Shown piece by piece: positions 27,746-28,183 of a DNA stretch of 64,000 nt. Positions within the stretch are counted from its first letter, which is position 1. Each line of letters opens with the position of its first letter. A model generated the notes under the pieces. The model ran no database searches. It was not told the DNA's origin and saw only the letters and a program-made list of their open reading frames with translations. The stretch is from Schmidtea polychroa (lineage: Eukaryota): assembly GCA_044892525.1 (NCBI GenBank), contig CM097885.1, positions 1,364,001 through 1,428,000 of the forward strand. The letters run 5' to 3'. The translations under genes and the position numbers were made by a program.

Positions 27746-28183
27746 ATGCTTGCAAATATAAATTATCGAGGAAATTTTGATGTTTCAAAAATGAGGTTCC
27801 CACCAGGAAAACCACAGCAAATTGTCGATAGAAGCGGGAAATATCCGATAATATTTTTCAAGACTGGCAAATGCAGAATTATGGGATGTAAGGAACCATT
27901 GGATATTAATAAATTACAATATCGAATCAATAATATTAAAATTCAATCAATTACCGTTACTATGGATATAAGACATACTATCAATTTATACAAAATATCG
28001 AGAAAATGTGATTGTATGTTTGAACCGGAATTGTTTCCGGCATTAAGACTATTAAAATATAACCCTATATGTGTCAATGTGTTTTCAAGTGGAAAGGTTG
28101 TCATGCTTGGTTTGAGAAATTTAGACTATAGGGAATTTGTTAACAATGTTCGGAATGATTTAAATTCATTGGTCGATTTCTAA
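27746..28183 (+). CDS. TATA-binding protein (TBP)-like protein, 145 aa
   Basis: Two TBP-repeat signatures: IIFFKTGKCRIMG and FEPELFPALRL..VNVFSSGKVVMLG (cf. TBP YEPELFPGL..LIFVSGKVVLTG). Upstream TATATAAAG; intact paralogue at 56467-56904. Confidence 0.85.
   Translation: MLANINYRGNFDVSKMRFPPGKPQQIVDRSGKYPIIFFKTGKCRIMGCKEPLDINKLQYRINNIKIQSITVTMDIRHTINLYKISRKCDCMFEPELFPALRLLKYNPICVNVFSSGKVVMLGLRNLDYREFVNNVRNDLNSLVDF

What the first reader, a model, noticed from the sequence alone, without database searches (positions are those of the whole stretch)
27746..28183. Virus-encoded minimal TATA-binding protein
Seen: a 145-aa protein with a well-preserved second TBP repeat (FEPELFPAL, VFSSGKVVMLG) and a shortened first repeat that keeps IFFKTGK..IMG but lacks the first intercalating-Phe motif; intact in both copies and divergently transcribed from the ATPase-to-capsid block. 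Known: TBP homologues occur in giant viruses that have their own RNA polymerase. Inference: in a 17-kb element with no RNA polymerase it may redirect host Pol II to viral late promoters or act as a decoy.
Basis: partly seen in the sequence, partly recalled or inferred. Interest (0 to 1): 0.88.

Follow-up and report, generated by a model that had tools for sequence, protein, structure and literature searches.

The report
Maverick virus-like element's own mini-TBP
A virus-like transposon that fills this genome carries its own stripped-down TATA-binding protein, and its capsid and packaging genes share a special TATA-like box, which suggests that the element runs its own early-to-late gene switch on the host's RNA polymerase.

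Summary
ORF 27746-28183 (+) encodes a 145-aa protein that matches Pfam TBP (58 bits, cut-off 22.9). Its AlphaFold model (pLDDT 93.6) lies over the whole TBP saddle (Z 12.5, 144-145 of 145 residues). The C-terminal repeat is complete. The N-terminal repeat keeps its strands but has lost both helices and one of the four intercalating Phe.

It is a conserved, syntenic gene of a Polinton/Maverick lineage with pPolB, rve integrase, adenoviral-type protease, A32-type ATPase and a double-jelly-roll capsid protein. This 781-Mb genome holds at least 150 copies (4186 first-look candidates). A metagenome scan confirmed 173 relatives. dN/dS is about 0.18-0.20.

New here: a strand-specific box, YATAAACAW, lies about 30-45 nt before the ATG of the ATPase, capsid and other module genes (ATPase 20 of 25). 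The TBP gene almost never has it (2 of 48) and instead carries canonical TATA boxes (19 of 48).

Best reading (inferred, untested): host TBP transcribes the mini-TBP gene, and the mini-TBP then reads the C7 box and brings host Pol II to the morphogenesis genes, as herpesvirus vTBP does at late promoters. The only print mention found is a one-word figure label (Starrett 2021). I rate it a new variant of a known kind.

The parts
27746..28183 (+). Mini-TBP gene, copy 1 (145 aa, P0001). The N-lobe is residues 1-60 (strands only). The complete TBP repeat is residues 61-145.
56467..56904 (-). Mini-TBP gene, copy 2 (145 aa, P0002), from a diverged subfamily of the element.
   Evidence: dN/dS against copy 1 is 0.20.
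27711..27719 (+). Canonical TATA box (TATATAAAG), starting 35 nt before the mini-TBP ATG. Copy 2 keeps it (GTATATAAAGAC).
27670..27677 (-). YATAAACA box (TATAAACA on the minus strand), with its ATAAAC core starting 39 nt before the ATPase ATG. Copy 2 keeps it at 56972-56977, while the sequence around it has diverged.
27020..27637 (-). A32/FtsK-type packaging ATPase gene of copy 1, with one in-frame stop. Copy 2 lies at 57004-57627 (+) and has a stop at a different codon.
27022..27027 (-). ATAAAC box 35 nt before the 163-aa ORF 26501-26992. It lies inside the 3' end of the ATPase gene.
25711..26445 (-). rve integrase ORF, shorter than in relatives. An ATAAAC box lies at 26499-26504.
24269..25315 (-). 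348-aa conserved module gene (cluster 5). An ATAAAC box lies at 25353-25358.
22664..23890 (-). Double-jelly-roll major capsid protein gene (408 aa). An ATAAAC box lies at 23926-23931, inside the preceding ORF.
   Evidence: AF2 pLDDT 76.9. Foldseek E 3e-15 to iridovirus, PBCV-1, mavirus and Sputnik capsid proteins. Box.
22249..22572 (-). Adenovirus-type cysteine protease (Peptidase_C5) ORF.
   Evidence: 30.7 bits, cut-off 21.3.
17391..21225 (-). [quoted passage not shown]
   Evidence: cluster 8.
28998..29405 (+). 135-aa accessory gene (cluster 3, often next to the TBP gene), with a canonical TATA box (GGTATAAAAACC). One contig of run X2 carries a poly(A) loose end after 29454.
15880..31900 (.). 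Maverick/Polinton copy 1, bounded by inverted terminal repeats that hold an (ATA)n tract (left about 15,880-17,285, partly duplicated; right about 31,226-31,900). Approximate ends.
53567..59013 (-). Partial copy 2 of the same element family, 79-94% identical in DNA to 25642-31152 of copy 1.

Best explanation
The ORF encodes a real, selected, minimal member of the TBP family, carried as a backbone gene of a Polinton/Maverick lineage. It forms a full-width TBP saddle. The C-terminal lobe is a canonical repeat that keeps the EPELF stirrup and both kinking Phe. The N-terminal lobe is reduced to strands (no H1, no H2) and has Lys in place of one Phe, with Arg and Met in place of the DNA-facing Val and Thr.

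Proposed mechanism (inferred). The mini-TBP gene is transcribed from a canonical TATA (plus Inr-like) promoter by the host's own TBP and Pol II. Its product then recognises an element-specific TATA variant, YATAAACAW, with C at box position 7. This box lies about 30-45 nt before the ATG of the packaging ATPase, capsid, PLA2-like and other module genes. There the mini-TBP nucleates a host Pol II pre-initiation complex through its conserved C-terminal stirrup, the TFIIB site of cellular TBP. The element would thus have an autonomous early-to-late switch, analogous to the vTBP of beta- and gamma-herpesviruses.

Shown: fold, family, synteny, selection, and the two promoter classes with their gene-specific distribution. 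Inferred: which protein reads the box, TFIIB recruitment, and the temporal order.
For: Identity.
- Pfam TBP 58.1 bits against a cut-off of 22.9.
- AF2 pLDDT 93.6.
- Foldseek found 44 hits at E <= 0.001, all TBPs; the next hit is at E 0.06.
- VIA-align gave Z 12.5, rmsd 2.6 A, 144-145 of 145 residues aligned over the whole TBP core. The top 38 rows are all TBP, and the next row has Z 6.2.
- The C-half matches repeat 2 of eukaryotic TBPs better than repeat 1 (42 vs 24 bits).
- The N-half is a degenerate repeat (hhalign E 1.2e-5).

Family.
- 69 homologues among 72 candidates, all carrying PF00352.
- 60 50%-identity clusters at E <= 1e-30 and 534 at E <= 1e-10.
- 173 confirmed metagenome loci.
- E93, E95, F97, F38, F113, R44 and M46 are invariant in 43 sequences.

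Context.
- In all 6 long loci scanned, the gene lies among pPolB, rve-chromo integrase, A32 ATPase, PLA2-like and C2H2 genes.
- The gene order is conserved.
- The window's 408-aa gene has the double-jelly-roll capsid fold.

Selection.
- omega is 0.20 and 0.18 between window subfamilies.
- The median is 0.175 in 20 metagenome pairs.
- 143 of the 150 scored genome copies have no stop.

Promoters.
- ATAAAC is the most enriched hexamer at -65..-20 of 255 ORFs from 36 loci: 86 observed against 9.4 expected. It is sense-strand only (67 vs 3 at -30..-49) and peaks at -30..-39.
- By gene family: ATPase 20 of 25, PLA2-like 10 of 13, a 97-aa gene 10 of 10, capsid 7 of 11, but TBP 2 of 48, pPolB 2 of 10 and C2H2 1 of 9. 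Fisher's test for TBP against ATPase gives p = 2e-11.
- After YATAAA the module genes have almost only C (for example ATPase 18 C, 2 T, 1 A). The TBP gene has 0 C out of 11.
- 19 of 48 TBP genes carry a canonical TATA box without ATAAAC; in a second, stricter count 27 of 63 carry TATAWAW.
- 24 of 48 TBP genes have an Inr-like TCAYWWT, against 23 of 276 other ORFs.
- Both window copies keep both box types although the DNA around them has diverged.
- The box is not more frequent in the element overall (1.43 vs 1.47 per kb).

From memory, not from a call: in cellular TBP the N-terminal lobe contacts the 3' half of the TATA box. That is where the box departs from consensus (C7) and where this protein is remodelled. 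The EPEL residues are the TFIIB contact of TBP.
Against: - No experiment or RNA data links the protein to the box. No sequencing run on record as RNA holds the locus.
- The box core also fits the forkhead consensus RYAAAYA (from memory), and it is close enough to TATA that host TBP might bind it.
- Only about a third to 40% of ORFs carry the exact hexamer (88 of 255; 113 of 276 non-TBP ORFs). The integrase has it in 6 of 17.
- Loci were fetched by the TBP gene itself, so I could not ask whether TBP-less Mavericks lack the box. Two searches of IMG/VR found no relatives of this lineage.
- Loci are related to each other, so the counts are not independent events.
- ORF starts are taken as the first ATG, and no transcription start is mapped.
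- The box and the DNA-facing residues are both invariant across the family, so there is no covariation to exploit.
- Side-chain orientation was read from strand alternation and alignment, not from coordinates.
- The early/late labels are by analogy only.
Confidence: 0.5

Rival explanations
1. Decoy or competitor. The mini-TBP occupies canonical TATA boxes or sequesters TFIIB without supporting initiation, because it lacks the N-lobe helices and the N-stirrup that bind TFIIA, NC2 and TAF1 in cellular TBP. It would damp host transcription, or keep the element's own genes quiet.
For: The N-lobe lacks both helices and the canonical stirrup. From memory, those surfaces carry the TFIIA, NC2 and Mot1 contacts of TBP. 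The conserved C-stirrup would still allow TFIIB capture. The TBP gene's own promoter is a canonical TATA box, so autoregulation is possible.
Against: A decoy does not explain why the module genes carry a distinct, positioned C7 box that the TBP gene lacks. The invariant DNA-facing residues differ from cellular TBP (S68, N111, R44, M46), which points to a changed rather than a copied specificity.
Confidence: 0.15
2. The YATAAAC box is read by a host factor (host TBP tolerating C7, or a forkhead-type factor). The mini-TBP acts elsewhere in transcription, for example on the canonical TATA 'early' genes or as a general booster.
For: The box core matches the forkhead consensus RYAAAYA (from memory) and is one base away from a TATA box. 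The genome has several TBP paralogues of its own.
Against: Tight spacing to the ATG, strict orientation and an 8-9 nt footprint fit a core-promoter element better than an enhancer site. The box is conserved across all clades of a family that always carries the mini-TBP.
Confidence: 0.15
3. An architectural DNA-bending protein outside transcription. It would bend AT-rich terminal repeats or origins to help protein-primed replication, integration or packaging. In relatives the gene sits directly before the packaging ATPase.
For: The ATPase is its immediate downstream neighbour in 11 loci. The TBP fold is a strong DNA bender (textbook knowledge). The terminal repeats are extremely AT-rich.
Against: The TFIIB-contact stirrup motif is strictly conserved (E93, E95 invariant; P94 nearly so), which a pure bender would not need. 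The promoter dichotomy would be left unexplained.
Confidence: 0.1
4. A decaying passenger ORF with no present function, intact in the window only by chance because it is short.
For: Both window elements are decaying. Copy 1 differs from the commonest genome form at 4 nucleotides, 3 of them non-synonymous (omega 0.74).
Against: omega is about 0.18-0.20 between subfamilies and across metagenome pairs. There are 21 invariant columns across proteins 37-88% identical to the window's. Synteny is conserved. 143 of 150 scored genome copies are open.
Confidence: 0.02

Closest known systems
Cellular TATA-binding protein (TBP, Pfam PF00352; eukaryotic TBP and archaeal TBP)
   Same: The saddle fold matches over its whole width (Z 12.5). 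It shares a complete C-terminal repeat with the EPELFP stirrup, three of the four kinking Phe, and the F-S-S-G-K strand motif.
   Different: It has 145 aa against about 180 for the TBP core. The N-terminal repeat has no H1 or H2 and one strand fewer. Lys replaces the N-stirrup Phe. The DNA-facing Asn, Val and Thr positions are changed to invariant Ser68, Asn111, Arg44 and Met46. It is encoded by a mobile virus-like element in many copies.
Herpesvirus vTBP (KSHV ORF24, EBV BcRF1, HCMV UL87)
   Same: A nuclear DNA virus without an RNA polymerase encodes a TBP mimic. The mimic reads a non-canonical TATA variant (TATT) on late promoters and recruits host Pol II (abstracts and titles of PMC7498053, PMC4893493 and PMC12529657, seen in the listing). 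This is the closest analogue for how the mini-TBP may work.
   Different: There is no detectable sequence kinship, and structure matches to BcRF1 and U58 are only weak (E 0.013 and 0.0075). The herpes proteins are large, multi-domain and part of a six-protein complex. The box here is YATAAAC, not TATT.
TBP-like proteins of giant viruses (Nucleocytoviricota; e.g. Heterosigma akashiwo virus, mimivirids, asfarvirus B263R)
   Same: They are virus-encoded TBP-fold proteins and the best viral structure matches (E 1.8e-7 to 1e-4).
   Different: They are two-repeat proteins of 190-550 aa in viruses that carry their own RNA polymerase. Sequence identity is only 9-19%.
'TBP' gene labelled in MELD (Polinton-like) viruses by Starrett et al. 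2021, Virus Evolution (PMC8502044)
   Same: [quoted passage not shown]
   Different: It is only a label. The text I read names no virus for it and gives no structure, promoter or function. The figure itself is not held, so I cannot tell whether it is the same family.
TBP-related factor TRF2/TBPL1
   Same: It is a TBP paralogue with altered DNA-contact residues that serves a separate promoter class (from memory). An Atlas cluster named 'TATA box-binding protein-like 1' is among the feature hits (score 0.93).
   Different: TRF2 keeps two full repeats, is a host gene and does not bind TATA. The mini-TBP keeps three Phe and is element-encoded.

Membership tests
TBP family (Pfam PF00352) | Significant match to the family HMM above the curated cut-off | tested here: met
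   58.1 bits (copy 1) and 53.1 bits (copy 2) against a cut-off of 22.9. The family profile matches PDB TBPs down to 5e-20.
TBP family (Pfam PF00352) | Saddle fold: two lobes forming one curved antiparallel sheet | tested here: met
   AF2 pLDDT 93.6. Z 12.5, rmsd 2.6 A, 144-145 of 145 residues aligned across the whole TBP core. The top 38 rows are all TBPs.
Canonical TBP (cellular type) | Two complete S1-H1-S2-S3-S4-S5-H2 repeats | tested here: not met
   Residues 1-60 have four strands and no helix of 4 or more residues. Only residues 61-145 form a full repeat. About 30 fewer residues than the TBP core are aligned.
Canonical TBP (cellular type) | Four DNA-kinking phenylalanines (two per repeat; positions recalled from yeast and human TBP) | tested here: not met
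   F38, F97 and F113 are present and invariant. The fourth position is K22 by hhalign.
Canonical TBP (cellular type) | C-terminal stirrup E-P-E-L used for TFIIB binding (role recalled from the literature) | tested here: met
   At sequence level only: E93 and E95 are invariant and P94 nearly so in 43 sequences. Binding was not tested.
Canonical TBP (cellular type) | Binds TATA-box DNA and supports Pol II initiation | not testable with these tools
   This needs EMSA, SELEX or in vitro transcription.
Polinton/Maverick (host element) | [quoted passage not shown] | tested here: met
   Window: a weak PF03175 hit on a fragment (20.7 bits, below the 25.8 cut-off) and rve at 35.1 bits. Related loci: PF03175 at 77-98 bits and rve at 48-57 bits.
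Polinton/Maverick (host element) | Morphogenesis module: double-jelly-roll capsid protein, A32/FtsK ATPase, adenoviral-type protease | tested here: met
   Capsid fold at E 3e-15 to PBCV-1, iridovirus and mavirus capsid proteins. Pox_A32 at 31.3 bits and Peptidase_C5 at 30.7 bits. The penton protein was not identified.
Polinton/Maverick (host element) | Terminal inverted repeats | tested here: met
   Arms at about 16,3xx-17,285 and 31,610-31,876, 84-95% complementary. Sequences read.
Herpesvirus vTBP (UL87/ORF24/BcRF1) | Homology to the UL87 family | tested here: inconclusive
   Only weak structural matches (BcRF1 E 0.013, U58 E 0.0075). I claim likeness of function only, not membership.

The most novel reading that the evidence does not exclude
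Mavericks of this lineage run an autonomous two-tier transcription programme on host Pol II. A host-TBP-dependent 'early' set includes the smallest known TBP saddle (1.5 repeats). Its remodelled N-lobe has been retuned to a C7 TATA variant (YATAAACAW) that marks the capsid, packaging and other module genes. That would be a self-contained promoter code, evolved independently of but parallel to the herpesvirus vTBP/TATT system, and active in an element present in thousands of copies in an animal-sized genome.
Probability: 0.4. Interest if true: 0.88.

Novelty: new variant of a known kind. Interest (0 to 1): 0.76.

Why it matters
How Polintons/Mavericks are transcribed is essentially unknown. They are usually assumed to depend passively on host factors or, for virophage-like relatives, on a giant virus. 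A conserved element-encoded TBP together with a gene-class-specific core-promoter box would give them their own regulatory switch. That would explain how capsid genes can stay silent in a genome holding thousands of copies.

The finding also offers a direct handle on the question: one small protein and one 8-nt box, suited to EMSA, reporter assays or RNAi. For the transcription field, a natural 145-aa saddle with a helix-less lobe is a minimal scaffold. It could show which TBP surfaces are really needed for DNA bending, for TFIIB recruitment and for specificity at box position 7.

Tried and rejected
1. RNA evidence. No sequencing run on record as RNA holds the stretch. I laid four runs kept as contigs. 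Contigs of runs only guessed to be RNA cover parts of the TBP ORF, and one X2 contig has a poly(A) loose end after 29454. Neither shows transcription of the TBP gene, its start or its strand, so I do not use it as evidence.

2. ATPase intron idea. Both window copies show the ATPase as two ORFs, which looked like a shared intron. tblastn shows one continuous frame with a single in-frame stop at a different codon in each copy. No contig skips the gap. Rejected.

3. Control with TBP-less relatives. IMG/VR held no relative of this lineage's capsid protein or ATPase profile. Its only TBP hit, L001, is an ordinary 182-aa two-repeat TBP. The question of whether TBP-less Mavericks lack the box stays open.

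The host's true TFIIB first cyclin repeat is split by an interruption. The best unbroken hit is BRF1-like by my reading of its sequence.

5. phmmer of the 408-aa protein against PDB found nothing. The fold search then identified it.

6. Earlier findings of this scan: nothing by place, sequence or words.

7. ESM Atlas: it returned only TBP clusters, with unreliable taxon labels, and adds nothing.

8. Poly(A)-signal reading of the box. Rejected because the box precedes the ATPase in a divergent intergenic region with no upstream same-strand gene, often lies inside the preceding ORF, and is YATAAAC rather than AATAAA.

9. No phylogeny of the 85-aa repeat was built. Profile scores do not separate an archaeal-like from a eukaryotic repeat-2 origin (43.0 vs 42.1 bits).

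10. Literature. Seven full-text searches found no study of a Polinton/Maverick TBP or promoter code beyond the Starrett figure label. PMC11161782 contains none of 'TATA', 'TBP' or 'transcription factor'. The 'tata' hit in PMC12220804 is an author's name.
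Full report
WHAT IS THERE

It matches Pfam TBP (PF00352) at E 7.9e-16 and 58.1 bits against a curated cut-off of 22.9. All 35 PDB sequences it matches by phmmer are TBPs or TBP fusions. A second copy at 56467-56904 (-) is also open. It is 88% identical in protein and matches Pfam TBP at 53.1 bits.

FOLD

An AlphaFold2 model built on a 43-sequence family alignment has mean pLDDT 93.6.
- Foldseek against the PDB gives 44 matches at E <= 0.001. All are TBPs, and the next hit is at E 0.06.
- VIA-align gives Z 12.5 and rmsd 2.6 A, with 144-145 of 145 residues aligned across the entire TBP core (human 163-337, yeast 65-240). 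The top 38 rows are TBPs and the next row has Z 6.2.

So this is not a half-TBP. It is a full-width saddle made from about 30 fewer residues.
- Residues 61-145 are a complete S1-H1-S2-S3-S4-S5-H2 repeat. It scores better against repeat 2 than repeat 1 of eukaryotic TBPs (42 vs 24 bits).
- Residues 1-60 have four strands and no helix.
- hhalign of the family's N-half on its C-half (probability 81%, E 1.2e-5) shows the N-half is a degenerate repeat. P23 aligns with P98 and F38 with F113, but K22 stands where F97 is, R44 where V119 is, and M46 where L121 is.
- In the C-lobe, the alignment to solved TBPs puts invariant S68 at the Asn of strand S1' and invariant N111 at a Leu of S4'.

Three of the four kinking Phe and the E-P-E-L-F stirrup are invariant or nearly so across the family. 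That these are the TFIIB contacts and the kinking residues of cellular TBP is recalled from the literature, not taken from a call.

THE ELEMENT

The gene lies in a Polinton/Maverick of about 16 kb, bounded by inverted repeats. The element carries:
- pPolB pieces with an Endonuclease VII domain;
- an adenoviral-type protease, an rve integrase and an A32-type ATPase;
- a 408-aa protein whose model (pLDDT 76.9) matches double-jelly-roll capsid proteins of iridovirus, PBCV-1, mavirus and Sputnik at E down to 3e-15.

No RNA polymerase family was seen among the 42 window ORFs scanned.

Both window copies are decaying. Each ATPase has one in-frame stop, at different codons, and pPolB is in four pieces. 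Copy 1 of the TBP gene differs from the commonest genome form at 4 bases, 3 of them non-synonymous.

FAMILY AND SELECTION

- The word-index search found 69 homologues among 72 candidates, 96-223 aa long, all with PF00352.
- An exhaustive profile search found 2958 50%-identity clusters at E <= 0.001 (this includes ordinary TBPs), 534 at <= 1e-10 and 60 at <= 1e-30.
- A metagenome scan confirmed 173 of 385 pattern matches, of which 80 loci were kept.
- In the six longest loci scanned, the gene always sits among pPolB, rve-chromo integrase, A32 ATPase, PLA2-like and C2H2 genes. The order is conserved: PLA2-like, small ORF, TBP, ATPase, 97-aa ORF, C2H2, integrase, and on to the capsid gene.
- IMG/VR holds no member. 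Its one hit is an ordinary two-repeat TBP.
- The window's own genome (781 Mb, four chromosome-sized contigs) gave 4186 first-look candidates. All 150 that were scored match at E <= 1.2e-86, and 143 of the 150 have no stop. These are the best-scoring candidates, so the open fraction is biased upward.
- Eight of nine further loci carry the gene with identical DNA.
- dN/dS is 0.20 and 0.18 between the two window subfamilies (dS 0.26-0.28).
- From 40 complete metagenome genes, 24 pairs were 70-97% identical. Four were dropped: two were saturated and two had dS of about 0.05 or less, one of which has omega 1.1 at dS 0.02. The other 20 have median omega 0.175, range 0.11-0.43.

PROMOTERS (new here)

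I took 255 non-overlapping ORFs of 90 aa or more from 36 loci (35 metagenome loci of 3 kb or more, plus window copy 1).
- The most enriched hexamer at -65..-20 from the ATG is ATAAAC: 86 observed against 9.4 expected from both strands of the same loci.
- It is on the sense strand only (45 + 22 sense against 1 + 2 antisense at -30..-49) and peaks at -30..-39.
- 88 of the 255 ORFs have it at -70..-21.
- Aligned instances give YATAAACAW with no information outside 8-9 nt (120 instances; 86 non-identical).

After BLASTP clustering of 334 ORFs from 50 loci, the box is gene-specific:

| Gene family | With ATAAAC box |
|---|---|
| ATPase | 20 of 25 |
| 160-aa family | 13 of 19 |
| Cluster 5 (about 350 aa) | 10 of 15 |
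| PLA2-like | 10 of 13 |
| Capsid | 7 of 11 |
| 97-aa family | 10 of 10 |
| Integrase | 6 of 17 |
| pPolB | 2 of 10 |
| C2H2 | 1 of 9 |
| TBP | 2 of 48 |

- Fisher's test gives p = 2e-11 for TBP against ATPase and p = 6e-8 for TBP against all 276 other ORFs.
- After YATAAA the module genes have almost only C (ATPase 18 C, 2 T, 1 A; PLA2-like 10 C; capsid 7 C). The TBP gene has 0 C out of 11. The background is 28% C.
- The TBP gene instead has canonical TATA boxes (19 of 48 without ATAAAC; in a second, stricter count 27 of 63 carry TATAWAW). It also has an Inr-like TCAYWWT within 30 nt of the ATG in 24 of 48 cases, against 23 of 276 other ORFs.

In the window, the ATPase-to-capsid block carries the C7 box. 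The TBP gene and three right-arm genes carry TATAAA[A/G/T] boxes. Both window copies keep both types although they are only about 80% identical there. Eight of 24 element ORFs have the box against 2 of 30 other window ORFs, while the overall density of the hexamer is the same inside and outside (1.43 vs 1.47 per kb).

Caveats:
- Loci are related, not independent.
- ORF starts are assumed to be the first ATG.
- All loci were fetched by the TBP gene, so no TBP-less control exists.

MECHANISM

The best-supported reading is a two-tier programme.
1. Host TBP and Pol II transcribe the mini-TBP gene from its canonical TATA/Inr promoter.
2. The mini-TBP then reads the C7 box and assembles host Pol II on the morphogenesis genes, through the conserved C-terminal stirrup.

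From memory, the N-terminal lobe of TBP sits on the 3' half of the TATA box. That is where the box departs from consensus and where this protein is remodelled (K22, R44, M46).

The function is untested. Rival readings are a decoy or repressor, a host factor reading the box (its core also fits the forkhead consensus, from memory), and a non-transcriptional DNA bender.

KNOWN RELATIVES AND NOVELTY

- Viral TBP-fold proteins are known in giant viruses, which give the best BFVD matches (E 1.8e-7 and weaker, 9-19% identity).
- A functional analogue exists in beta- and gamma-herpesviruses, whose vTBP reads TATT late promoters and recruits host Pol II (titles and abstracts seen in the listing).
[quoted passage not shown] 2021. 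I read the passages and section 3.4. The figure is not held, and no virus is named for the label in the text.
- Seven full-text searches found nothing more, and PMC11161782 contains none of the three terms searched.

I therefore rate it a new variant of a known kind. It is a TBP-family member with a new 1.5-repeat architecture, a new carrier (Mavericks), and a previously undescribed promoter dichotomy attached to it.

NOT DONE

- No RNA run on record holds the locus.
- No model coordinates were available, so I could not check side-chain directions.

Noticed in passing
window 2833-8431 and 8434-14032: A perfect 5,599-nt palindrome (100% complementary, 2-nt spacer) that mirrors several ORFs (one with DUF4371). 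It adjoins a 452-aa ORF (481-1839) with an Endonuclease VII hit, and 2999-3555 is 74% identical in DNA to the pPolB region of copy 1. It could be a true hairpin-like duplication or an assembly artefact.
   Followed up: partly
window 27020-27637 (-) and 57004-57627 (+): Both copies of the packaging ATPase carry one in-frame stop, at different codons, so the two elements were inactivated independently while the TBP ORF stayed open.
   Followed up: yes
window 50333-53557 and 60800-63922: A second, different Polinton-like gene set: a double-jelly-roll-like capsid gene recognised by Pfam (PF21738, 60800-61729 and 61777-62088), Pox_A32 ATPases (51207-52016, 63467-63922) and an integrase zinc-binding fragment. 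It has a 99.5% inverted duplication, 51596-53557 against 61926-63887. No TBP gene was seen in it.
   Followed up: no
window 40400-49600: Reverse-transcriptase ORFs (RVT_1) of retroelements, partly duplicated (39071-40496 against 44091-45587, 94-96% identical).
   Followed up: no
G000:C1:23.8-24.2 Mb and C3:38.2-39.1 Mb (loci L100, L101): At least 13 intronless ORFs of about 301-310 aa with a TFIIB zinc ribbon and a TFIIB cyclin repeat. In L101 two stand about 7.9 kb apart, with no other ORF of 120 aa or more between them. This looks like an expanded TFIIB-like family in the same genome that holds thousands of mini-TBP genes. Whether the two are linked is unknown.
   Followed up: partly
G000, search with PF00352: The genome has several two-repeat TBP paralogues, some in single open frames of 166-215 aa. 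It also has many further single-repeat hits of about 52 bits in frames of 163-236 aa, which suggests other mini-TBP subfamilies besides the one in the window (2998 first-look candidates).
   Followed up: no
window 15,880-17,285 and 31,226-31,900: The terminal inverted repeats contain a long (ATA)n/(TTA)n tract and a palindromic motif (TGACTCATCGATGAGTCA) that recurs just outside the ends. The left repeat is tandemly duplicated (15903-16543 against 16573-17213, 99% identical).
   Followed up: partly
loci L057, L074, L056, L062, L011, L025: Related Mavericks carry a parvovirus-type PLA2-like domain gene, a C2H2 zinc-finger gene, a KilA-N protein and pPolBs with an Endonuclease VII domain. In L074 the pPolB also has N-terminal C2H2 fingers.
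   Followed up: no
window about 29454 (+): One contig of run X2 ends in a run of A right after the 135-aa ORF 28998-29405, as a polyadenylated transcript would. The run is only guessed to be RNA.
   Followed up: no
L001:9902-10450 (IMG/VR contig, 47% GC): An ordinary 182-aa two-repeat TBP (124 bits) on a 44.7-kb viral contig. It is unrelated to the mini-TBP lineage and probably comes from a larger virus.
   Followed up: partly
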